Assembly: GCA_018694835.1 (NCBI GenBank)
Contig: JABHOG010000126.1
Coordinates: forward strand, 1,765-65,764
Reading direction: 5' to 3'
DNA from: Planctomycetota bacterium
GTDB taxonomy: Bacteria > Planctomycetota > UBA8108 > UBA1146
Length of the DNA: 64,000 nt
A model generated the notes under the pieces. It did no database searches. It saw only the letters and a program-made list of their open reading frames with translations, and was not told where the DNA came from. Positions 21,122 to 62,928 of this stretch are shown in pieces (the stretch's first letter is position 1; each line of letters starts with the position of its first letter). Made by a program: the position numbers and the translations under genes.

Positions 21122-22513
21122 GTGGAGGAGGACCTTCTGATGTCGATGGGTGAGGACCCAGCAGAAGAGTGGCGAGATGTCTCTGGCTGGGCGGGCACTT
21201 GCCATGCCCGCTGCAAGGTCATCCGCTGTCAAGGAGTCGAGGAGAGCCGCACCCTTCTGCGGGAGGACGGCCCCTGGTTGCCTCGGGGCGGCGGGTGCTC
21301 CTACGGCGATGCTGCGATTCTTGATCAGGGGCGATTGTTGCAATTGAAGCCCCCCAGCGGTGACCAGATCCTGTCCGCTGTTCCAACGCCAACCGATCTG
21401 GAATCACCAAGCGTATCGGTTTCTGCTGCAGTAACCCTGCGCCAACTACTCCCACTGCTCAATCGCCAGGGGCTCACTCTGCCGGTGGTCCCAGGGGTCC
21501 TCGATGCCACGGTGGGAGGGATGCTTGCAGCCGATGTCCACGGCAAGAATCACCTGAGCAGGGGGTCGATCGGGGATGTCACCGTTGCTCTCCAAGTACT
21601 GCTTCCCTCTGGCGAAGTGATCGACTGTGATCGAGATCGAGAGCCAGAGATCTTTCGTGGGACCATCGGTGGCATGGGTTTGACGGGAGTGATTCTCGAG
21701 GCCCGATTGGCAGTGATTCCTCTGCTGGCAGACAGGGTCGAGGTGCAGGTTCTGGCCACGAAAAATCTGCAGGAGTCCCTCGCGCAACTCGATCGACTCG
21801 CCGCTAGTGAAGAGCATGTAGCGGCCTGGATCGACCCGACCGCCAGGGGCAGCGAGTTTGGTCGAGGGATCGTGGTTGGGGGAACGGTGGTCGCGACCGA
21901 TCGGGTCGTTCGATCGAACCGTTCGAGTTGGGATCTTCCCAGGGGGAACAGTTTTCCCGCTGGATTCTCCTGGGCTCTGTCTCCGATCGGAATCCGCTGT
22001 CATAACGCCGTGCGCCACGCCTTGGCAAGAATCGGTCGTCGGCAGAGAAGCTGGGAACTGGAGCGGCTGCTGTTCCCGCTCGAACGCTGGCGCGACTGGA
22101 AGAAGATCTACCAGCCAGATGGATTCCACCAGCACCAGTCGCTCATTCCCGAAGATCACTGCTCTGGAACGATCCGCGAACTGCTCGAACTCTCGAACCG
22201 TGGACGGTGCCCCTCGACGTTGGTCGTGATCAAGAAGATGAGAAAAGGTGCGGGGGGACTGTCTTTTGGTGCCGAAGGGATGACCCTCTCGATGGATTTC
22301 AAAGCCACCGCTGGAGTGAAGGAGATCTTGCACCACTGTGATTCGCTGGTTGCAGATGTGGGCGGTCGAGTCTATCTCGCCAAGGATTCGACTCTCACAC
22401 CGGAGTTGTTGCGAAGGATGTATCCGCAAGTGGATCAGTTTCTCAGTTTGAGAAATCGCATCGATCCCGATCGGAAACTGAATTCAGATCTTTCCAGAAG
22501 ACTGGAGATCTAA
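21122..22513 (+). CDS. FAD-binding oxidoreductase (PCMH-type FAD-binding domain)
   Basis: 463 aa; FAD-binding-4-like N-terminus (GGGCSYGDAAI), long C-terminal substrate domain. Confidence 0.65.
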   Translation: MEEDLLMSMGEDPAEEWRDVSGWAGTCHARCKVIRCQGVEESRTLLREDGPWLPRGGGCSYGDAAILDQGRLLQLKPPSGDQILSAVPTPTDLESPSVSVSAAVTLRQLLPLLNRQGLTLPVVPGVLDATVGGMLAADVHGKNHLSRGSIGDVTVALQVLLPSGEVIDCDRDREPEIFRGTIGGMGLTGVILEARLAVIPLLADRVEVQVLATKNLQESLAQLDRLAASEEHVAAWIDPTARGSEFGRGIVVGGTVVATDRVVRSNRSSWDLPRGNSFPAGFSWALSPIGIRCHNAVRHALARIGRRQRSWELERLLFPLERWRDWKKIYQPDGFHQHQSLIPEDHCSGTIRELLELSNRGRCPSTLVVIKKMRKGAGGLSFGAEGMTLSMDFKATAGVKEILHHCDSLVADVGGRVYLAKDSTLTPELLRRMYPQVDQFLSLRNRIDPDRKLNSDLSRRLEI

Positions 22514-54358: not shown

Positions 54359-55733
54359 AAGATGGGATTGAATAACAGCCCACTCACTCCGTCATCCCTC
54401 TCGAGTGAATGATCGTGGCGATTCAGCTGCGGGAAACACTCGAGAAAGGAGTCGGAAATGTCGAATCGCTCTCTACTGGTGATGGCACTGCTGGTGTCAC
54501 CGATGATCCTGGCAGCTACAAAAGTCGAGGCTGTCTCGCCCCGCAAGTTGCGATGTGTCTCGGCCACCGCGCGTCAATCGGTCAGGGCTTGTTCCCTTCA
54601 TGACCATTCGCACAACATCTTGCCGGGCATCGTTTACTCCAGACGGGGTGGAGGCTGTTTCCGAACCTTATCGAACGGAATGACGCAGGTCTGGAGAGCA
54701 GCGTCCTCGCATATCGAATACCGGAAGGTATGCAGTCCGGATCGATTTCGTACGGTGACCCGCTTTCGCACCGTCTTTCGCTGTGGAGTCCCTTCTCGAA
54801 GGTCATACCAGCAACGGATCCGGATCCCGGGAAGGGCCCGCAGGGTCTCTCACCGGGTCCATGTCCCCGGTGCCTGGGTTTTCCAGAAGCCCGATTGTGG
54901 CCTCTCTGGTGTCGGTCCCTTTCACTAGAGTCCCTCCCTTTGCCCCCGGGGCCGACGGAACCCACCGTCGGCCCCGGATCTTTTCTTTCCACACCTTGAC
55001 CTGTGGCTGACCACCCCCCATATTCCTGCCAGCCCAAGATCTGGACCCATCCCTCTGGCTCTGGCTGATAAAGTTGATTCGAGAATCGTGAGAGTGTGTT
55101 TCTCCACCTGCCATCTCCACCCGCTCTGAGAGTTCCAACACTCCTCTCTGATAAAATTGAGAAGTCTCTATCGGTTCGAGTCCGCAACTGGAGTCCAACA
55201 CTGGAGTCGGCGGCGATCGGTCAGAGGTTTCAGATCAGTGGCTTGAATACGCGGTTTCCCAGGGGGGAAATCGATTCGGGAACTCGGCTCCAGAATCCGC
55301 CTGTGCACTGAAGCAGGGAATGGGGGAATCGGCGGGTGTGGGGCGTGGATCAGGGACCGATCGTGGCGGAGGCGGGACGCGCCTTTTGCCCGAAGATGGA
55401 TGACCAGGCTGGGGAGCCTGGACGGGGACGCCCCTCTGTGGGGCGAGGGGATCCGATCGAGGAGCCGTGCCAGGTACGGCGACTTGAAGACGGGAGCGTG
55501 GGGGGAAGAGAGAGAGCGGTCTTGCACCGCTGATCGCAGGATCCGTTCCTGCTGGATCCATCTCCAACTACCACCGCCTGCTGGATCGAAGAAAGCCCTG
55601 TCCACTCCCGGTATGTCTCCGCCTGTTTTCCTGATCGCTCCCACCTCTCAACATCACGCACATCGGCCTGCTCGTCCCTACGCACTTCCTGGGCAGGTTT
55701 CCCAACGTCCTAGCGACATTCATACCCAAGCTT

Positions 55734-55770
55734 CTCCTCGCCGAGTAGGGACGGCGAGGAGCTTTTCTCC
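55734..55770 (+). terminator. strong hairpin (10-bp perfect GC stem, 8-nt loop) followed by CTTTTCT; terminator/attenuator-like element in the leader of the giant regulator gene
   Basis: ctcctcgccg-agtaggga-cggcgaggag-cttttctccc, read directly. Confidence 0.4.
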
Positions 55771-55897
55771 CAGCCGGGGGCGATTTTCACCGTTACTTTT
55801 CTTTACGGGAGAGGCCCCGCCCGATACCCTATCCGTCAGGATTTGTTACGGTCGTATGGGGGTGCTGAGAAGGCGCCGATTCGAGGAGGTGGGTTCG

Positions 55898-58800
55898 ATG
55901 GACGGAGAGAGCCAAGTGGTCGAATCGAGCGGAGAAGCGCTGGAAGAGACCCCTCGCCAGCAAGCGTTGACTCGGCTTCGTGAGTGGATCCAGATCGGAC
56001 TCGATCCCGACCCCGAAACTCCTCGCAAGGGCGCCACCAACTGTTCTTTGTCGCTGATCGGTGGTGCCAGCGGGATCGGCAAGACTCACCTGATCGCTCA
56101 GGCGCTCTCGGAGTCCTCCGCAGCAACAGGACCGATACTCAGTTGTCGGGTTCATTGCCACGAGCGTCAGGGGATCCCATTTCTTCCGGTGCTTCGTCTG
56201 GTCAAGGATCTCATCATCGAACATGGCGAGACGAGAGGGCTGTGGCGGCGCTACGCCCATGTCCTGGTGCGGGTCTTTCCCGAGCTGCAACAGGAGGTCA
56301 AAGGTGTCGTCGACCAGGAGCCTCTGGCGGGAACTCGCGGCCGGATCCAGTTCCACCAGGCTTTGACGGGGATTCTCTGGGAACTGGCGAAGGATCGGAC
56401 TCTTGTCCTGGTCCTCCATGACCTGCACCGGAGTGACCCAGGGACCATCGAGTTTGTCGAATACCTGGCCAGAAATTCGGCTCTCTCCAGGGAGCCTGCC
56501 CAGGGGGCAGGAAACCCGGCTGGAGGCGAGGGTGACCGGGACTGGAAGCAGATCCGTGCGAGGGAGGGGCGCGCCGGGGAGTTCGCCAGTTCCATCGTCG
56601 AGCCGGATCAGGACACCACCTTCCCAGCGGAACAGGTTCAGGGACGTCTTCTCATCGTAGGAGATCATTGTTCCGATAGTTTCGCCGCTAGCGCTCCAGA
56701 ACTGCAGCGGTTGGCGAGTCAGCCCTTCTGTCGAACCATCGATCTCCCCTCCTGGACCGGGTCAGAAGTCTCGGATCTGGTGAATCAACAACTCGGGAGC
56801 GAACCCCCTGAGGAACTGGCCAAGACCATCGCCGAAGGTTGCGATGGCAATCCAATGCTGGTGCTGGAGATGTGCCGGTTGCTTGAGGAAGGTGGCGTGG
56901 CTTCGCCGCTCGAGGCGGAGAGTGTAGAAGCCCTACTCGAGAGTGCTCGAGGGGGTGATCTGACACAACTAGTGGTCGAGCGCAGAGTGGCAGCTCTCCC
57001 GCCATTGGAGCGACGAGTGCTGGAGCAATTGGCCATGTTACGAAGACCGGTTCAATCTTCATTTTTGGTTCGGTGTTGCGGAGTCTCTCAGGAGCGCCTC
57101 GAAGGAGCGTTGGAGCCACTGATCCAGCGAGGATTCGTCGATCGTCATGAATCGAGAGGCAAGGTTCGGTTCCACATCAGCCATGAGATTCACATGCGAG
57201 GAATCCGTTCAGCGATTCGACCCGAAGCGGCAAGGAATCTGCAAAAAGAACTGGGGATGACTCTCAGCGAGGATGTACGAAGCCGGGATCCGGTTCGAGC
57301 CTACGAAGTGCACGAGTTACTGGCCGCTGGAAATGAACCGAAACTGGCCATCCCGTACGGGATCATCGCCATGAGTTACTTTGCCGATGCCTACGCCGAG
57401 CCTCTGGCGATTCGCATCGGAAAAAAGATGCTCGAACTGCTCGAGGGCGATGCCGATCCCAAGTTACGCGTTGAGATTCTCGGTCGACTGGCTCGTCTTG
57501 AGGTCGAGGTCGGTCAACTGGAGTCGGGTAAGTTGCATCTCAAATTGCTACTGGAAGATCCCGACCTGACTCCAGAGGAACGAGTGGAGTCACGATTCTA
57601 CCTTGCCGAGATCTACCACCAACTGGGAGAGCCGTTGAAGGGGATCCGAGGCCTCAACCGGATCAGTTCCTCCGATCTGGACACTGCAGGAGCAATTGCG
57701 CTGCCGAAACTGACGATCTTGCGAGCTCGTCTACGACTGCAACGACGAGATATCAAGAGGGCGATGAGCCATTGCTTGCAGGCACAAAAGCAGATCTCGG
57801 GGATCGATCAGCATGAGGGAGTGGAGAAGCTGCAATGTCAGGTGCTGGAAGTCCTGGCGGAAACCCATCTCGCCAGAGGCGACTCTGCTGCCGCACTCAA
57901 CACTTATCAGCGGCTACTCGATCAGGTGGAAAGAGACGAGGATCCGGTGGCACTCGGATCGGTCCTTCGAATCATCGGGAGAGTCTATTACGAGCGAGGG
58001 AAACACTTCCGCGCCGCCAGGTACCTGTTCCGAGCGCTGGAAGTGGTCGACCGATCTCAGGATGTCAGGGCTCTCGCTGCGACCTTCGAATTACTGGGTA
58101 AGGTCTACAGGAACAGCGGCGATTTCTCACGAAGCCTCGAGCATTTCCGTCGCTCTCTGACCTTGCGGGAGCGGATCGGTGACAGCCATCAGATTTCTCC
58201 GACTCTCAACTCCATCGGAAGCCTCCACGCTCATTCGGGCGATTACGATCGGGCGATTCGTTTCTTCAAGCGTAGTATCTCCAATAGCGAGAAGTTTGGC
58301 AGTACCGAGGGAATCGTTCGTTCCTTCCTGCACCTGGGCTGGGCATGGTTTGCGCTGGGAGAACGAAAGCAGGTCGAGAATCTGGCTCGTCAGATCCTCA
58401 TTCTCACCCAGGAGTTTGAACTGCCGAAGCACCAGCCGGAAGGCCATCGCTTGCTGGGGAACCTGGCACTTCTGCGCAGGGACTGGAAACTCGCCGATCG
58501 CGAACTGAAGAAGGCGCTCGACCTGAGCCAGAAGCAAGGACTCGATCGAGTGGTGGCAGCCAGCCTCTTTGATCGCGCTCAGTTGGGGATCGAGAGAGAA
58601 GAGTACGAGGAGTCTCTCAAGCTTGTCAGCCGAGGGTTGCTCACCGCCGAATCGCTTCAATCGGTACCACTGATTGTCCGTGGACTGCTACTCAAGGGGT
58701 CGATCAGTTTGCAGCGAAATGAGGAGGGGCAAGAGAAGGCACTCGAGAATTACGAGAAAGCACTTCAAATGATCAGCGGAGATTCGCTGTTGCCTCTTCA

Positions 58801-60253
58801 GTGGCAGATCCACTACGCCCTCGCCAGGGTTCAGCAGAGTTCCCATGACTTCGAAGGCGCATGCGTTTTCTACGACCGAGCAGCCGCCATCATCGAACGG
58901 ATCTCACAGAGGCTGCCCGAGGATATGAGGGTCGTCTATCTCAATGATCGCAGACGCAAGAACTTCTTCGCCGACCTCCAACGCTTCAGGAGGGAATCCG
59001 ATTCTCTCCCTCCAGCGATCGGTCCGGGACCGGTGGTTTTCTCCGACCTCGATCAGGGCGGGGGCGGCGGTCACGGAGCAAATAACGGCTCCGACCTGCT
59101 AGTGGCCGCGGTGAATGCGGCGACCAGACTGGGGAAGAGAATCGAACTCCGCACCTTCCTCGAAGGGGTACTCGATGAATCGAGGAAGATTGCACCGAGT
59201 CCTCGAGGCTTCATCGCAGCGCTCAGGAAACGCCGTTGGCAGAGCCTGGCAGATATCGACATGGGACCGACAGAGGATTGGCTTCCACAGCAACAAGTTC
59301 TTGGCGCCCTTGCGCAAGAGTGTCTCGATCGAGGCGTGGCGATTCGCAGTGGAACCGCAGCCTGGGAGTCGTGGATACACAACCACCCACAGGAGTCCTC
59401 GGTGAGAGGCCGAAGCCTGCTGGCGATCCCCTTCTGTGCAGAAGGGGTCCTTTCTATTGCTCTGGTTCTGGAGCGCCCGACCGCTGGGAATCCGTTCCAG
59501 GAACAGGATGTCGCCGAGGTGATTCGATTGCTCTCGATGGTCAAGGGCCAGATGAGGGCGCTGGCCGAGAATGCTCAGTTACTCGAGTACCAGGAGAGTG
59601 AGATCGGATCGTTGGCCGCACTGGATGTGGACCTCGAGCAGTTCCTCGATCGCCATCATCGTGACAAGCAGCCGCTGGGATTTCTCGAGATGAGTTTTCC
59701 TGGTCTCGACATCCTCTTGAAAGAGCGTCAGGACGAGACCTTTGTCGAACGGCTACTTCAGATGCTGGAACCAAACTCCGGGGTCTACCACACCGGTGGA
59801 GATCATCTGGTCTGTGCACTGATCGGGCCGGGAGAAGATGACCTGCGCCAGCGCAGTCGTGACCTTCAGCACGTATTCCATGATCTTCGTCAGGAGTTTG
59901 GATTACCGATGGAAGTCGCCATCCACATCTTGCCGAGATGGTATCCAGTTGGATCGAAAGAGGTGGCTGAACTCAGCAGTGGTAGAGCGGACCTGTTTCG
60001 ATCCGCGCAAAAACCAGATCTCGATCAGGAGGTTGCCAGGCTGACTTCAGGAGAGTTGACCCTGCGAGAGGCCAAGGCCGCCCTCGAGCGTCGATATATC
60101 ATCGCAGAGTTATTTCGCTCCGGAGGGAATATCACCCGGGCTGCTGAGGCACTGGGGATTCATCGTCCTCAACTATCGAACCTGCTCAAGCGCCATGAAA
60201 TCCGCAAGGAAGATTTTGAAGGGGACTCTGGAAAGAAAACCAGTTCCTCCTGA
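55898..60253 (+). CDS. giant multidomain regulator: STAND/AAA_16-type P-loop ATPase + extended TPR arrays + GAF domain + GGDEF-like segment + C-terminal Fis-type (HTH_8) DNA-binding domain
   Basis: Start set at Met 55898 with GAGGAGGTG RBS 6 nt upstream; the first 166 codons of the 1617-aa track ORF are low-complexity and look non-coding. Walker A LIGGASGIGKTHL with STAND-like continuation, many TPR-like repeats, GAF-like block (SLLAIPFCAEGVLSIALVLERP), GGDEF-like VYHTGGDHLVCALIG. C-terminal HTH REAKAALERRYIIAELFRSGGNITRAAEALGIHRPQLSNLLKRH. Confidence 0.75.
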   Translation: MDGESQVVESSGEALEETPRQQALTRLREWIQIGLDPDPETPRKGATNCSLSLIGGASGIGKTHLIAQALSESSAATGPILSCRVHCHERQGIPFLPVLRLVKDLIIEHGETRGLWRRYAHVLVRVFPELQQEVKGVVDQEPLAGTRGRIQFHQALTGILWELAKDRTLVLVLHDLHRSDPGTIEFVEYLARNSALSREPAQGAGNPAGGEGDRDWKQIRAREGRAGEFASSIVEPDQDTTFPAEQVQGRLLIVGDHCSDSFAASAPELQRLASQPFCRTIDLPSWTGSEVSDLVNQQLGSEPPEELAKTIAEGCDGNPMLVLEMCRLLEEGGVASPLEAESVEALLESARGGDLTQLVVERRVAALPPLERRVLEQLAMLRRPVQSSFLVRCCGVSQERLEGALEPLIQRGFVDRHESRGKVRFHISHEIHMRGIRSAIRPEAARNLQKELGMTLSEDVRSRDPVRAYEVHELLAAGNEPKLAIPYGIIAMSYFADAYAEPLAIRIGKKMLELLEGDADPKLRVEILGRLARLEVEVGQLESGKLHLKLLLEDPDLTPEERVESRFYLAEIYHQLGEPLKGIRGLNRISSSDLDTAGAIALPKLTILRARLRLQRRDIKRAMSHCLQAQKQISGIDQHEGVEKLQCQVLEVLAETHLARGDSAAALNTYQRLLDQVERDEDPVALGSVLRIIGRVYYERGKHFRAARYLFRALEVVDRSQDVRALAATFELLGKVYRNSGDFSRSLEHFRRSLTLRERIGDSHQISPTLNSIGSLHAHSGDYDRAIRFFKRSISNSEKFGSTEGIVRSFLHLGWAWFALGERKQVENLARQILILTQEFELPKHQPEGHRLLGNLALLRRDWKLADRELKKALDLSQKQGLDRVVAASLFDRAQLGIEREEYEESLKLVSRGLLTAESLQSVPLIVRGLLLKGSISLQRNEEGQEKALENYEKALQMISGDSLLPLQWQIHYALARVQQSSHDFEGACVFYDRAAAIIERISQRLPEDMRVVYLNDRRRKNFFADLQRFRRESDSLPPAIGPGPVVFSDLDQGGGGGHGANNGSDLLVAAVNAATRLGKRIELRTFLEGVLDESRKIAPSPRGFIAALRKRRWQSLADIDMGPTEDWLPQQQVLGALAQECLDRGVAIRSGTAAWESWIHNHPQESSVRGRSLLAIPFCAEGVLSIALVLERPTAGNPFQEQDVAEVIRLLSMVKGQMRALAENAQLLEYQESEIGSLAALDVDLEQFLDRHHRDKQPLGFLEMSFPGLDILLKERQDETFVERLLQMLEPNSGVYHTGGDHLVCALIGPGEDDLRQRSRDLQHVFHDLRQEFGLPMEVAIHILPRWYPVGSKEVAELSSGRADLFRSAQKPDLDQEVARLTSGELTLREAKAALERRYIIAELFRSGGNITRAAEALGIHRPQLSNLLKRHEIRKEDFEGDSGKKTSSS

Positions 60254-60281
60254 GTTCTGTGGGGATCACCTGCCAAAGAAA

Positions 60282-60314
60282 GTGGGCCTCGACGCCGGCT
60301 GCGTCGAGGCCCAC
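60282..60314. terminator. bidirectional terminator hairpin (14-bp perfect stem) between convergent regulator and histone-fold genes
   Basis: gtgggcctcgacgc-cggct-gcgtcgaggcccac, flanked by aaagaaa/tgttctg. Confidence 0.6.
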
Positions 60315-60342
60315 TGTTCTGACAAGATCGAGATCTCGTCAA

Positions 60343-60528
60343 TTAGCAGATGAAGTCGTGGGAGCGAACGGTCTTGCGCCCGTTTTGGCTGGCACGTTTC
60401 GCCGCCTGTTCGATGGCCTGGTGCAGAATCTCGTTGAGTCCGTCGAGGGCATCGCCACCGACATTGACATCGTGCTCCTTGAGTGCAGCCTTCGCTTTAC
60501 TTCCGACGAGCAGCATTTCCTTGGACAT
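60343..60528 (-). CDS. bacterial histone-fold protein (DUF1931 / Bd0055 HBb-like singlet histone)
   Basis: 61 aa: MSKEMLLVGSKAKAALKEHDVNVGGDALDGLNEILHQAIEQAAKRASQNGRKTVRSHDFIC. It follows the LVV(T/G)SK.K..LKE...N.....D.L...I.Q....A......GRKTV...D pattern of Bdellovibrio Bd0055-type histones. AAAGGGGA RBS 5 nt upstream of the ATG. Confidence 0.75.
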   Translation of the reverse strand: MSKEMLLVGSKAKAALKEHDVNVGGDALDGLNEILHQAIEQAAKRASQNGRKTVRSHDFIC

Positions 60529-60817
60529 TTAATCCCCTTTCTGAACCCGACTCGAATTCCGAAGAATCGGCCAGGCATGTGATTCCGGTAGAACCTGGTA
60601 CTTTGCTGGCTCGACGGATATCCGCACGATCCTGCCAGCGCCTTGCATATCTGCCCTCCTTTGGCATGAAGCCCGCCGCGGTGCGGGCAAGGAGTGCAGA
60701 ACTCAACTATCGGAGGATAGCCATGGATGGGCTGGGTGTAAAAGGAGTAATTTCCCCTGGGAGCCCCGAATTCTACGGGTATCCGCCGTTTGTCGGTATC
60801 ACCCTGGAATTGAGAAT

Positions 60818-60849: not shown

Positions 60850-60882
60850 GAGTTGTAACTTATTCTTTCACAGTTGCTTAGG

Positions 60883-62928
60883 TTAAGCGTGGACGAATTT
60901 CGCTGGAGTCCTGGGACCATTTTCGAGGAAGTTGGAGACGCCAATCCTCATGTCCTGGGTACCACAAACTTCCCCGAAATATCGGGCCTCCAGGGCGATT
61001 CCATCTCTCAGTGGCAAGCGACATCCTTCGACGATCGCCTTCTGAAGCACGGCATCGACGCTACGACTCAGGTGTCCGAGGTCCACTTCAGGTAAGGAAT
61101 CGGGGGTCTCCATCGGACCGCGCTGGATCGAAGGTAAGGTGGCTTCTCCAGCAAGATGAGCACGGATCAGCGCAACCGCACAGTCGCGTAGGGCTCGCGG
61201 ATCTCCCACCACCTCCTGCTGGATCAATCCGATCGCCAGAGCTTCTGCAGAGGAGACAGGGCGGCCGGTACGCATCAGTTCGGCAGCCTTCTCGACACCG
61301 ACCCAGCGCGGCAACCTCTGAGTTCCCCCGGCCCCGGGAATGATGCCGAGATTGACCTCGGGTTGTCCCACCAGGATGCGCTGATTCGCCCGCGCGATTC
61401 GAGCATTGCAGGCCATGGCGATCTCATTACCGCCGCCGAAGGCCAGGCCATTGAGTGCACAGACCACCGGCTTGGGGCAGTCCTCGATCGCCTGGATCGA
61501 CTTCTGGGAGCCTCGAGATGTGGCTTCCCCCATCGCCGGAGATTCGATCTTTGCGAGAAAGGGAACATCTGCGCCCGAAACGAAGGCCTTGATCCCGAAT
61601 CCCGAAAGCACGACACCCACGACATCATCGTCAGCAGCGATGTCGACAAAGTGCTTCTCGATCTGATCAAAAGCGGAGTTGTTCAGGGCGTTGAGTTGCT
61701 TTGGGCGGCGAATCAAGACGTGGGCGATACCATCGACGTCCTGACGCAGAACCGTTGAGATCTGGAAAGGGTGCCCCGACTTGGCCTGTTTAGAGATGCA
61801 AGCGGGCACCGGAAACTCAGCATGAACTGCAGAGTATTGCTGGACCAGTTCCAGTGCAGACTCGACCCCGATCGAGTTCATCAGGCGAAAGGGAGCTTTC
61901 ATGTCGAGTGCCATCTCGACTGCCATATCCATGTCTTCGATCGAGGAGATGCCACTGTCTACGATTTCTCCGACAATCCCAAAGAAGGATCCGAGGAGAG
62001 CATCTCGCACCTGCTGGAAAGTTTCTTCTGGAACCTCGATCTTCTCCCCACGGCCCGGGACATCCCAGGAGGTCTCGTCGGCGACTGCTCGGCGCAAGAT
62101 CTCAGGAGTGTGGTACCAGCGATGGATCTTCTCGTTGTAGTGATCGAGGCCCACCGCAGTGATCGGGTTCCCCCCTGTGAGGTTCATCGCAGTGAAGGGC
62201 CCTACCGTGTATCCCAGCACGTCACAGGCCACCTGGTCGATCTCTTTGCTGCTGGCGATACCCTGTTCTGCCAGTAGTGCGGAGGCGAGGAACATACCCT
62301 CGAAGACCGGATCGAGAGCGTAGCCGTAGCGACTGCCCACGCAAATCGGGATCTTACCGATGGCTTCGTAGAATCCCATCATGTCGTGAGCCAGTGCGCG
62401 CGAGGTGTCGGCGCCCGGTACGATTTCGACTATCGGATTCCGTTCCGCCGGGAAGAAGTAATGGACCACCATCGTACGGTTGCGACTCTCGATGCCCGCG
62501 AAGATGACCTCGGGCTCCAGGTGTGATGAGTTGGAACAGAGCACCGCATGGTCTGGTACCAGGTCGACCACCTGAGAGAAGATTCGCCCTTTCAGATCCT
62601 TGTCCTCGGTGGCCGCTTCGACCACCAGGTCACAGCCCTTGAGCTGGTCGTAATCACTGGTGAAGAGGACATTCTCCTTCATCGCCTGGCCCTGCTCGGT
62701 ACCAAAGGCTCTCGCTTCAATGCCTTTGTCGATCTTTCGGTCCAGTTTCTTTCGGCCCTTCTCAAGTGCGACAGCATCGATGTCGACGACGACGATGGGA
62801 GCTCCGAGCGGTGTGAAAACCTTGGAGAAGTGGAGCGCGATATCTGGGCCGATCTGGCCGGAACCGATGACTCCGATGCGGGTCACAGGACGGCCCTGAA
62901 TCTGGATACTCAAATTGTCAGTGGTCAT
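60883..62928 (-). CDS. bifunctional 3-hydroxyacyl-CoA dehydrogenase / enoyl-CoA hydratase (HADH N-terminal, crotonase C-terminal)
   Basis: 681 aa; N-terminal NAD-binding GVIGSGQIGPDIA plus HADH C-domain, C-terminal crotonase fold (...VVLSGFGIKAFVSGADV...). Domain order is inverted relative to FadB. Confidence 0.85.
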   Translation of the reverse strand: MTTDNLSIQIQGRPVTRIGVIGSGQIGPDIALHFSKVFTPLGAPIVVVDIDAVALEKGRKKLDRKIDKGIEARAFGTEQGQAMKENVLFTSDYDQLKGCDLVVEAATEDKDLKGRIFSQVVDLVPDHAVLCSNSSHLEPEVIFAGIESRNRTMVVHYFFPAERNPIVEIVPGADTSRALAHDMMGFYEAIGKIPICVGSRYGYALDPVFEGMFLASALLAEQGIASSKEIDQVACDVLGYTVGPFTAMNLTGGNPITAVGLDHYNEKIHRWYHTPEILRRAVADETSWDVPGRGEKIEVPEETFQQVRDALLGSFFGIVGEIVDSGISSIEDMDMAVEMALDMKAPFRLMNSIGVESALELVQQYSAVHAEFPVPACISKQAKSGHPFQISTVLRQDVDGIAHVLIRRPKQLNALNNSAFDQIEKHFVDIAADDDVVGVVLSGFGIKAFVSGADVPFLAKIESPAMGEATSRGSQKSIQAIEDCPKPVVCALNGLAFGGGNEIAMACNARIARANQRILVGQPEVNLGIIPGAGGTQRLPRWVGVEKAAELMRTGRPVSSAEALAIGLIQQEVVGDPRALRDCAVALIRAHLAGEATLPSIQRGPMETPDSLPEVDLGHLSRSVDAVLQKAIVEGCRLPLRDGIALEARYFGEVCGTQDMRIGVSNFLENGPRTPAKFVHA

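What the first reader, a model, noticed from the sequence alone, without database searches (positions are those of the whole stretch)
60343..60528. Bacterial histone-fold (HBb/Bd0055-like, DUF1931) protein
The 61-aa product aligns position-for-position with the histone-fold nucleoid protein recently described in Bdellovibrio: LLVGSKAKAALKEH...LNEILHQAIEQAAKRASQNGRKTVRSHDF versus LVVTSKVKKLIKEK...LSKAIEQLCLKAVESAKADGRKTV. It has its own promoter region (a 354-bp gap upstream), a good RBS, and a strong convergent terminator. Bacterial histones are a very recent discovery and are uncharacterised in Planctomycetota. Its position next to a giant DNA-binding regulator is notable.
Basis: partly seen in the sequence, partly recalled or inferred. 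Interest (0 to 1): 0.7.

Follow-up and report, generated by a model that had tools for sequence, protein, structure and literature searches.

The report
HLp-type bacterial histone in a planctomycete

Summary
The ORF at 60343-60528 (minus strand, 61 aa) is real and under strong purifying selection. 77% of substitutions against relatives fall at third codon positions.

AlphaFold gives a confident (pLDDT 90) histone fold with a four-residue alpha3 helix. The closest solved structure is HLp of Leptospira perolatii, a tetrameric face-to-face (FtF) histone that wraps about 60 bp:
- HLp: 48-49% identity, TM 0.86-0.94, profile E 8e-15.
- Bd0055/HBb: 32-33% identity, profile E 2e-7.
- True DUF1931 proteins: no match, and no Pfam model reaches significance.

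The FtF signature R-xxx-N-x-R-x-T-xxxx-D is intact and invariant in the 26 aligned homologues. HBb lacks the first R and the N. No multimer prediction was available, so the tetramer is inferred.

The family occurs at 440 loci in species-representative genomes of several phyla. Three papers (2023-2025) already list Planctomycetota histones, none tested experimentally.

This marine clade is tail-less, and all but its deepest member end in a C-terminal Cys.

New here: the 354-bp upstream "gap" holds a conserved promoter-like box and a ~185-nt covariation-supported structured leader with no Rfam match. The strong terminator is conserved. Adjacency to the AAA_16-TPR-HTH_8 regulator is convergent and lineage-specific.

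Verdict: new member of a known kind, moderate interest.

The parts
60343..60528 (-). Histone gene (61 aa plus stop): an alpha3-truncated, face-to-face (HLp-type) bacterial histone. This copy is tail-less and ends in Cys61.
   Evidence: ORF. Purifying selection. AF2 model with pLDDT 90.1. Foldseek best hits 9qt1/9qt0 (HLp) with TM 0.86-0.94 and rmsd 0.9-1.0 A. PDB sequence and profile searches. Residue mapping.
60533..60540 (-). Shine-Dalgarno sequence AAAGGGGA, 4 nt upstream of the ATG.
   Evidence: Read from the sequence. The purine block (GAAAGGGGA, GGAAGGAGA or GGAAAGGAA) is conserved in all 18 aligned relatives.
60529..60713 (-). Conserved structured 5' leader of about 185 nt between the promoter-like box and the ATG. 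It has at least three covariation-supported hairpin domains, an invariant CAUGCC, and a pyrimidine element (CUCCUU) that can pair either with an internal AAGGAG or with the Shine-Dalgarno sequence.
   Evidence: Alignments A2 and A3. RNAalifold. Pair counts: 87.7% of cells paired against 35-55% when slid, 17 pairs with double-sided change against 3-9 when slid, and 0 of 500 shuffles reaching the observed covariation. The covariance model R1 hits the window once, at 60526-60713 with 132.9 bits. No Rfam family matches.
60714..60742 (-). Promoter-like site TTTACA-17-TATCCT. The second hexamer lies inside the box GGCTATCCT, which is found in L001-L022 (GGATATCCT in L023 and L024).
   Evidence: Consensus scan. 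Box positions at fixed spacing to CATGCC (50-55 nt) and to the ATG. Alignment. No transcription start was determined.
60271..60315 (-). Strong intrinsic terminator (15-bp stem, 5-nt loop, UUUCUUU tail), shared with the converging regulator gene.
   Evidence: z = -6.8. Nearly all of the 21 relatives examined carry an analogous long G+C-rich hairpin, usually with a U-run, downstream of the histone stop codon. The hairpin sequences differ between lineages.

Best explanation
The gene encodes a small nucleoid-associated protein of the alpha3-truncated histone family, in the face-to-face (FtF) subfamily whose solved bacterial representative is HLp of Leptospira perolatii.

Proposed mechanism:
- Two chains form the classical head-to-tail histone-fold dimer through their crossed alpha2 helices.
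- Two dimers then associate through both ends (C-terminal alpha2, loop L2 and the one-turn alpha3) into a closed tetramer. The contacts use R45, N49, R51 and F59.
- Double-stranded DNA binds without sequence specificity along the rim. The predicted contacts are the S10-K11 'paired ends of helices', K13 and K17 on alpha1, G25 in loop L1, and K52-T53 in loop L2.
- About 60 bp wraps around each tetramer.

The gene is a stand-alone unit. It has a conserved promoter-like box, a long structured leader, a strong ribosome-binding site and a strong terminator. That layout fits an abundantly expressed, dosage-controlled architectural protein.

Shown here: gene reality, the fold, subfamily-level similarity, the signature residues and the conserved flanking signals.
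Inferred: tetramer formation, DNA binding and wrapping, abundance, and any regulatory role of the leader.
For: Fold:
- AF2 mean pLDDT is 90.1, with alpha1 at 9-17, alpha2 at 25-48 (24 residues) and alpha3 at 57-60 (4 residues).

Nearest structures:
- HLp 9qt1/9qt0: TM 0.86-0.94, rmsd 0.9-1.0 A, 48-49% identity.
- HBb: 32% identity.
- Archaeal FtF HTkC: 32-34% identity.
- Nucleosomal histones: TM <=0.67.

Sequence ranking:
- Single sequence: HLp E 2.2e-10, HBb 2e-4.
- Family profile: HLp 7.6e-15, HBb 1.7e-7, HTkC 3.4e-7, HMfA 0.08.

FtF signature:
- The five most conserved FtF profile positions are R48, N52, R54, T56 and D61 (PMC11390915).
- They correspond with identical spacing to R45, N49, R51, T53 and D58. 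All five are invariant in the 26 aligned homologues.
- HLp R49, N53 and R55 are the tetramer-interface residues conserved among bacterial FtF histones (PMC12701072). HBb has S and D at the first two.

DNA contacts:
- Six of the nine HLp DNA-contact residues are identical in the query: S14, K15, K17, K21, G29 and T57 correspond to S10, K11, K13, K17, G25 and T53.

Distribution:
- The phyla found match the published bacterial FtF range of Planctomycetota, Bdellovibrionota and Myxococcota, plus Acidobacteriota and Krumholzibacteriota.

Signals:
-.
Against: - No multimer prediction or experiment was possible, so the tetramer rests on five conserved residues and on 48% identity to one solved protein.
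- Two HLp interface residues differ (S52 to Q48, T61 to H57). The chain also has two extra C-terminal residues (I60, C61) at what would be the dimer-dimer contact.
- This copy lacks the basic N-terminal tail said to be common in bacterial FtF histones. It is nearly neutral (pI 7.95, charge +0.8), so its DNA affinity may be lower than that of tailed relatives. By my count, the HLp fold alone is only about +2.
- No curated profile (Pfam, NCBIfam) reaches its threshold.
- There are no expression data. The rest of the genome could not be inspected for HU or other nucleoid proteins.
Confidence: 0.7

Rival explanations
1. It is a Bd0055/HBb-type 'bacterial dimer' histone. It would stay dimeric and either bend DNA or coat it end-on, without wrapping.
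For: - The monomer fold is almost equally superposable on HBb (TM 0.83-0.86, rmsd 1.3-1.4 A).
- Sequence similarity to HBb is significant (E 2e-4, 1.7e-7).
- Bacterial dimer histones are also reported in Planctomycetota (PMC11390915).
- The tetramer was not tested here. The two extra C-terminal residues could disturb the interface.
Against: - It is far closer to HLp than to HBb: about eight orders of magnitude in profile E-value and 48% against 33% identity.
- It has R45 and N49. The published discriminator is that bacterial dimers lack these two residues, and HBb has S and D there.
- Both residues are invariant across the 26 aligned homologues.
Confidence: 0.17
2. It is a histone-fold protein whose main role is not general chromatin architecture. 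It could be a protein-protein adaptor or a locus-specific co-regulator, possibly working with the adjacent AAA_16-TPR-HTH_8 regulator.
For: - The fadB-like / histone / regulator arrangement is kept across this planctomycete lineage even where the regulator has diverged to 36-46% identity.
- The protein is nearly neutral and tail-less.
- Some histone folds act outside DNA binding (discussion in PMC10627809).
Against: - The two genes converge on a shared terminator, so they are not co-transcribed.
- The adjacency is absent in Bdellovibrionota, Myxococcota, Acidobacteriota and Krumholzibacteriota, which carry 64-75% identical histones.
- The DNA-contact residues of HLp are conserved.
- The same family is a major nucleoid protein in Leptospira (PMC10627809).
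Confidence: 0.08
3. It is a DUF1931-family histone-like protein (Aq_328 / TTHA type) that does not bind DNA.
For: NCBI names HLp and at least one close homologue (P0084) 'DUF1931 domain-containing protein'.
Against: - PF09123 gives no hit for the protein. Only 2 of 26 relatives reach E>=0.19.
- 1r4v and 1wwi do not appear in the profile search at E<=1.
- The protein is a 61-aa singlet, whereas DUF1931 proteins are pseudodimers lacking the DNA-binding residues, and they form a separate sequence cluster (PMC12701072).
Confidence: 0.02
4. It is a spurious short ORF, and the conservation belongs to a non-coding element.
For: It is very short (61 codons) and has no curated profile hit.
Against: - 77% of substitutions fall at third codon positions.
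- There are 929 protein homologues and 440 genome loci.
- The fold prediction is confident and matches solved histones.
Confidence: 0.01

Closest known systems
HLp, the face-to-face (FtF) histone of Leptospira perolatii (PDB 9QT0/9QT1/9QT2; Hu et al. 2025, PMC12701072), and its L. interrogans orthologue LA_2458
   Same: - Best sequence and structure match: 48-49% identity, TM 0.86-0.94, rmsd about 1 A.
- Same alpha3-truncated fold with a one-turn alpha3.
- Same tetramer residues R, N and R, and the same RD clamp.
- Same S-K motif and alpha1 lysines that contact DNA.
- Similar length (61 against 63 aa).
   Different: - No N-terminal tail. Leptospira histones always have one (PMC11390915).
- Two extra C-terminal residues ending in Cys.
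- Interface positions S52 and T61 are replaced by Q and H.
- DNA-contact positions A13, T27 and T56 are replaced by G, V and K.
- Different gene neighbourhood: no SMC, MAP or DUF350 genes.
- Tetramer formation and DNA wrapping are untested here.
HBb / Bd0055, the 'bacterial dimer' histone of Bdellovibrio bacteriovorus (PDB 8CMP, 8FVX, 9EZZ)
   Same: - Same alpha3-truncated histone fold (TM 0.83-0.86).
- Same RKTV loop and RD clamp.
- Same S-K motif.
- Similar size.
   Different: - Only 32-33% identical.
- HBb has S and D where this protein has the FtF interface residues R45 and N49.
- HBb is dimeric and bends or coats DNA, whereas this protein is predicted to be tetrameric.
HTkC of Thermococcus kodakarensis (PDB 9F2C), and archaeal FtF histones in general
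   Same: - Same subfamily signature R-xxx-N-x-R-x-T-xxxx-D.
- Same truncated alpha3.
- Tail-less, as most archaeal FtF histones are.
   Different: - 32-34% identity.
- In the published cluster maps it falls in a separate (archaeal) sequence cluster.
DUF1931 (PF09123) pseudodimeric histone-fold proteins, e.g. Aquifex Aq_328 (1R4V) and Thermus (1WWI)
   Same: They share a distant histone-fold ancestry, and the database label is sometimes applied to this family.
   Different: - No significant profile or sequence match.
- DUF1931 proteins are doublets without DNA-binding residues, whereas this protein is a singlet that has them.

Membership tests
alpha3-truncated prokaryotic histones (Schwab et al. 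2024) | Three-helix histone fold (helix-loop-long helix-loop-helix) | tested here: met
   The AF2 model has pLDDT 90.1 with helices at 9-17, 25-48 and 57-60. All top Foldseek PDB hits are histones.
alpha3-truncated prokaryotic histones (Schwab et al. 2024) | alpha3 helix of only 3-4 residues, and alpha2 shorter than in nucleosomal histones | tested here: met
   alpha3 is residues 57-60 (4 residues) and alpha2 is 24 residues. The model superposes at rmsd about 1 A on HLp, whose alpha2 is one turn shorter than that of HMfB. HMfB was not measured here.
alpha3-truncated prokaryotic histones (Schwab et al. 2024) | RxTxxxxD motif / RD clamp structuring loop L2 | tested here: met
   R51-K-T53-V-R-S-H-D58 is present and invariant in the 26 aligned homologues.
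Face-to-face (FtF) histones | Conserved dimer-dimer interface residues R48 and N52 (profile numbering), equal to HLp R49 and N53 | tested here: met
R45 and N49 are present with the same spacing to R51, T53 and D58. Both are invariant in alignment A1.
Face-to-face (FtF) histones | Sequence clusters with bacterial FtF histones and not with bacterial dimers or nucleosomal histones | tested here: met
   Profile search against the PDB: HLp 7.6e-15, HBb 1.7e-7, HTkC 3.4e-7, HMfA 0.08. A full CLANS map was not made.
Face-to-face (FtF) histones | Conserved solvent-exposed lysine on alpha1 (profile K16) | tested here: met
   K13 is invariant. K11 and K17 are also conserved.
Face-to-face (FtF) histones | Homotetramer (torus) predicted with a confident interface, or observed | not testable with these tools
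   Only monomer prediction is offered, so no multimer model or experiment exists. This is the defining feature of the category and it remains inferred.
Face-to-face (FtF) histones | Non-specific binding of double-stranded DNA, with about 60 bp wrapped per tetramer | not testable with these tools
   This is known only for HLp (PMC12701072). Six of the nine HLp contact residues are identical here.
Bacterial dimer histones (HBb/Bd0055 type) | High sequence relatedness to HBb (the category is defined by sequence clustering) | tested here: not met
   Identity is 32-33%. The E-values are 6-8 orders of magnitude weaker than for HLp.
Bacterial dimer histones (HBb/Bd0055 type) | Lacks the FtF interface residues R48 and N52 | tested here: not met
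   The query has R45 and N49, where HBb has S and D.
DUF1931 (PF09123) pseudodimeric histone-fold proteins | Significant match to the PF09123 profile | tested here: not met
   No hit at E<=10 for the query. Only 2 of 26 relatives match, at E>=0.19. 1r4v and 1wwi are absent from the profile search.
DUF1931 (PF09123) pseudodimeric histone-fold proteins | Two histone folds in one chain, without the DNA-binding signature residues | tested here: not met
   It is a 61-aa singlet carrying the S-K, RKT and RD-clamp residues.
Archaeal nucleosomal histones (HMf/HTk; NCBIfam NF043032, Pfam PF00808) | Profile score above the curated cut-off, and a full-length alpha3 for four-helix-bundle tetramerisation | tested here: not met
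   NF043032 scores 24.5 bits against a cut-off of 50. PF00808 scores 12.9 bits against 21.4. alpha3 has only 4 residues. TM to HMfA/HMfB is 0.59-0.64.

The most novel reading that the evidence does not exclude
The ~185-nt conserved, covariation-supported leader in front of this histone gene would be a previously undescribed cis-regulatory RNA that sets histone dosage after transcription. One possible mechanism is a switch of its CUCCUU element between an internal AAGGAG partner and the Shine-Dalgarno sequence. The trigger could be binding of the histone itself (autoregulation), temperature, or another factor. That would be the first regulatory RNA known for any bacterial histone gene. A related reading is that this tail-less, Cys-terminated FtF variant is the principal chromatin protein of a widespread marine planctomycete lineage.
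Probability: 0.2. Interest if true: 0.6.

Novelty: new member of a known kind. Interest (0 to 1): 0.38.

Why it matters
Bacterial histones were shown to be real chromatin proteins only in 2023-2025, and only two have been studied in depth: HBb (a dimer that bends DNA) and HLp (a tetramer that wraps it). This gene shows what a correct subfamily call looks like for one of the many uncultured carriers. It also corrects a tempting mislabel (Bd0055-like, DUF1931).

It defines a compact, tail-less, near-neutral subclade ending in Cys, in abundant marine Planctomycetota. That subclade would be a natural minimal construct for testing whether the fold alone, without a basic tail, is enough for tetramer formation and DNA wrapping.

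The conserved structured leader and promoter-like box are the first hints of how such a gene might be controlled.

None of this overturns current knowledge. Planctomycete histones are already catalogued, and the organism is uncultured, so the value is incremental.

Tried and rejected
1. Curated profiles. Pfam gave only E 0.14 for CBFD_NFYB_HMF and nothing for DUF1931. NCBIfam archaea_histone scored below its cut-off. None of the 26 family members reaches any Pfam model. Profile-based membership therefore could not be used, and DUF1931 was rejected.

2. Rfam. There was no family at E<=1 on the leader strand, and no gathering-level hit anywhere in the 64 kb. There are no tRNAs either.

3. HU or a histone paralogue in the window. 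tblastn found no second histone. The one weak HU-like hit (22009-22080, E 0.04) lies inside a 463-aa enzyme ORF and was rejected as chance.

4. The leader in other lineages. The covariance model R1 hit only the close marine clade (the window, L006 partially, L011, L020 and L023). It found nothing in L025-L083, so it is not a general feature of histone genes.

5. Shine-Dalgarno sequestration. The column-wise helix 22-25/192-195 is 93% paired with two covarying pairs. Per-sequence duplex energies, however, favour pairing of the same 5' element with an internal purine stretch (-9.6 against -6.9 kcal/mol). The window's own minimum-energy fold uses that internal pairing and leaves the Shine-Dalgarno sequence free. 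The internal helix scored only 45% by columns, because of a register shift in the alignment. Sequestration is therefore left as a possibility and not claimed.

6. Thermodynamic support. The leader's single-sequence fold gives z = -1.46, which is not significant. The support for structure is comparative only.

7. Upstream ORF. A conserved uORF starting at the invariant CATGCC was considered and rejected. By eye, the frame runs long in the window but stops after 9 codons in L007 (sequences).

8. Functional link to the regulator. Synteny was checked in 80 loci and is lineage-restricted and convergent.

9. Multimer modelling. It is not possible with the tools offered.

Full report
**1. The observation**

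The window has an ATG-initiated ORF on the minus strand at 60343-60528.
- The preceding same-strand gene ends at 60883, which leaves the stated 354-bp gap.
- AAAGGGGA lies 4 nt before the ATG.
- A 15-bp G+C-rich hairpin with a U-rich tail sits at 60281-60315, between the converging stop codons. It folds with z = -6.8 against shuffles.

The gene is not a chance ORF.
- 929 homologues are found at E<=1e-3.
- The identical protein is indexed in 124 blocks of the public assembly collection, including the NCBI MAG GCA_018703235.1.
- Of 471 nucleotide differences between the window's core codons and 15 relatives, 363 lie at third codon positions.

**2. What the protein is**

Curated profile libraries do not recognise it.
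- Pfam gives only CBFD_NFYB_HMF at E 0.14 and nothing for DUF1931.
- NCBIfam archaea_histone scores 24.5 bits against a cut-off of 50.
- None of the 26 aligned family members reaches any Pfam model.

Solved structures do recognise it.
- phmmer against the PDB gives HLp of Leptospira perolatii (9QT0) at E 2.2e-10 and Bd0055/HBb at 2e-4.
- A profile of 26 homologues ranks HLp at 7.6e-15, HBb at 1.7e-7, the archaeal FtF histone HTkC at 3.4e-7, and HMfA at 0.08. The DUF1931 structures do not appear.
- AlphaFold2 with that alignment gives mean pLDDT 90.1, with alpha1 at 9-17, alpha2 at 25-48 and a four-residue alpha3 at 57-60.
- Foldseek places HLp first (TM 0.86-0.94, rmsd 0.9-1.0 A, 48-49% identity), then HBb (32%) and HTkC (32-34%). 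Nucleosomal and eukaryotic histones follow at TM <=0.67.

This is the 'alpha3-truncated' histone fold defined by Schwab et al. 2024 (PMC11390915).

**3. Which subfamily**

The literature separates face-to-face (FtF) histones from 'bacterial dimer' histones.
- FtF histones form closed tetramers and include HTkC and HLp.
- Bacterial dimer histones are the HBb/Bd0055 type. [quoted passage not shown]
- The strongest conserved FtF profile positions are R48, N52, R54, T56 and D61.
- In HLp the tetramer interface uses R49, S52, N53, R55, T61 and F63. [quoted passage not shown]

An explicit alignment shows the following.
- The query has KRASQNGRKTVRSHDF, HLp has KRTESNKRTTVRPTDF, and HBb has ESAKADGRKTVMARDI.
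- The query therefore carries R45, N49, R51, T53 and D58 with exactly the FtF spacing. HBb has S and D at the first two positions.
- All five residues are invariant in the 26 homologues.
- Six of HLp's nine DNA-contact residues are identical in the query.

I therefore file the protein as an FtF (HLp-type) bacterial histone, and not as Bd0055-like or DUF1931. The defining property of the category, the tetramer itself, could not be tested because only monomer prediction is available. It remains an inference.

**4. Family and distribution**

- A scan of one genome per species found 440 loci encoding relatives. The best 80 come from MAGs labelled Planctomycetota, Bdellovibrionota, Myxococcota, Acidobacteriota, Krumholzibacteriota, Elusimicrobiota and others.
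- An exhaustive HMMER search of 1.84 billion cluster representatives found 926 at E<=1e-3 and 128 at E<=1e-10.
- JGI already labels several members 'histone H3/H4', and NCBI labels one 'DUF1931 domain-containing protein'.

Three papers already record histones in Planctomycetota:
- Hocher et al. 2023: "phylogenetic persistence ... in the Planctomycetota", without expression data.
- Schwab et al. 2024: both FtF and bacterial-dimer types occur in that phylum.
- Hu et al. 2025.

A literature search found no experimental work on a planctomycete histone. The finding is thus a new member of a known kind.

**5. What is particular to this copy**

- The marine planctomycete clade containing the window (loci L004-L025) has no basic N-terminal tail. 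The true starts are MSK, MSNQR, MSDR or MADQ. L004-L024 end in xC (IC, VC or TC), and L025 ends NCN.
- Most other lineages carry 15-37-residue MAKKK-type tails and end in hydrophobic residues.
- The window protein is therefore almost neutral (pI 7.95, +0.8), against pI 10.4 for a tailed homologue.
- By my count, the HLp fold alone is only about +2, so neutrality does not argue strongly against DNA binding.
- Residues 60-61 would lie at the predicted dimer-dimer contact. Their effect is unknown.

**6. Flanking signals**

The 354-bp 'gap' is not featureless.
- In L001-L024 a box GGCTATCCT (GGATATCCT in L023 and L024) lies at fixed spacing from an invariant CATGCC and from the ATG. The box contains the -10-like hexamer of the only promoter-like site found.
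- The ~185 nt between the box and the ATG align across 18 loci. RNAalifold finds hairpins with compensatory changes.
- For a 33-pair structure, 87.7% of cells pair, against 35-55% when partners are slid by 1-3 columns. Seventeen pairs show changes on both sides, against 3-9 in the slid controls. No shuffle out of 500 reaches the observed covariation.
- The sequences fall into only about eight sub-lineages, so the number of independent events is modest. The window's single-sequence fold is also not thermodynamically exceptional (z = -1.46).
- A covariance model finds the element once in the window (60526-60713, minus strand) and only in this clade.
- Rfam has no match.
- A 5' CUCCUU element can pair with the Shine-Dalgarno sequence (93% paired by columns, with covariation). 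Per sequence it pairs better with an internal AAGGAG-like stretch. I therefore report a structured leader with a possible, unproven switch.

Downstream, nearly all of the 21 relatives examined carry a long G+C-rich hairpin, usually followed by a U-run. The hairpin sequences differ between lineages. The gene looks like a self-contained unit built for high expression, but no expression data were available.

**7. Neighbours**

- The convergent downstream gene (called start 55898, end 60253, 1451 aa) has AAA_16, MalT-like TPR and a C-terminal Fis-type HTH_8.
- The upstream gene is a FadB-like 3-hydroxyacyl-CoA dehydrogenase / enoyl-CoA hydratase.
- The trio is conserved within this planctomycete lineage even where the regulator is only 36-46% identical. 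It is absent from every other phylum's histone locus.
- The histone and regulator genes share a terminator and are not co-transcribed.

I treat the adjacency as lineage synteny. A functional link cannot be excluded but is not supported.

**8. Verdict**

It is a histone fold, but in the wrong subfamily, with the wrong Pfam label, and already catalogued in the phylum.
- Best explanation: an HLp-type FtF histone acting as a nucleoid-associated, DNA-wrapping tetramer (confidence 0.7).
- Main rival: an HBb-like dimer (0.17).
- The most novel element is the conserved structured leader, which deserves experimental follow-up.
- Interest is moderate.

Noticed in passing
window 60526-60742 (minus strand); also L004-L024 upstream of the histone gene: The upstream 'gap' contains a conserved promoter-like box (GGCTATCCT) and a ~185-nt leader. 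The leader has at least three covariation-supported hairpin domains, an invariant CAUGCC, and a pyrimidine element able to pair with either an internal AAGGAG or the Shine-Dalgarno sequence. It has no Rfam match, occurs once in the window, and is found only in this marine clade.
   Followed up: yes
Homologues P0019, P0047, P0051, P0055, P0064, P0075, P0084, P0095, P0103 and P0113; loci L027-L081: Most relatives outside the window's clade carry 15-37-residue Lys/Ala/Thr-rich N-terminal tails (MAKKK...). The window's clade (L004-L025) is tail-less, and L004-L024 end in a conserved C-terminal Cys (IC, VC or TC), at what would be the tetramer interface.
   Followed up: partly
Proteins P0121-P0127, P0130, P0131 and P0133: The highest-scoring cluster representatives are 118-132-aa tandem doublets of this same alpha3/FtF-like fold, with both halves keeping NGRKT(V/I)R. 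The main text of the 2024 classification paper mentions doublets only in its reference list, so FtF-type pseudodimers may be undescribed.
   Followed up: no
Proteins P0171 (650 aa), P0222 (515 aa) and P0175 (3900 aa, 14 matched stretches): Long proteins match this histone profile. In P0171 the match is at the extreme C-terminus and in P0222 near it. P0171 has an N-terminal region that looks like a sigma-factor or HTH domain. These could be real fusions or assembly and gene-calling artefacts.
   Followed up: no
L009 (QNYK01000090.1, titled 'MAG: Bacillota bacterium isolate MAG 7'): This contig carries the planctomycete fadB-like / histone / regulator arrangement, at 95%, 81% and 73% protein identity to the window. 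The 'Bacillota' label is probably a binning or labelling error.
   Followed up: no
window 60321-60340 (minus strand): A second, smaller hairpin (UUGACGAGAUCUCGAUCUUGUCA) lies directly after the histone stop codon, ahead of the main terminator. A similar UUGACAG...CUGUCAA hairpin is present in L007 and L010.
   Followed up: no
window 60854-60882 (minus strand); columns 37-65 of alignment A2: Around the stop codon of the fadB-like gene, relatives show an A/T-rich inverted repeat (TAAGT...ACTTA or CATAA...TTATG) whose arms appear to co-vary. In the window's own sequence the pairing is weak.
   Followed up: no
window 55400-60253 (plus strand): The mechanical ORF for the regulator is 1617 aa starting at 55400, but gene callers in three assemblies start it at 55898 (1451 aa) or nearby (1465 aa). 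The first ~166 codons are Pro/Arg/Ser-rich and probably not translated. The domains are AAA_16, MalT-like TPR and a C-terminal HTH_8.
   Followed up: partly
window 1-64000: No tRNA gene and no Rfam family at gathering threshold were found anywhere in the 64-kb window.
   Followed up: yes
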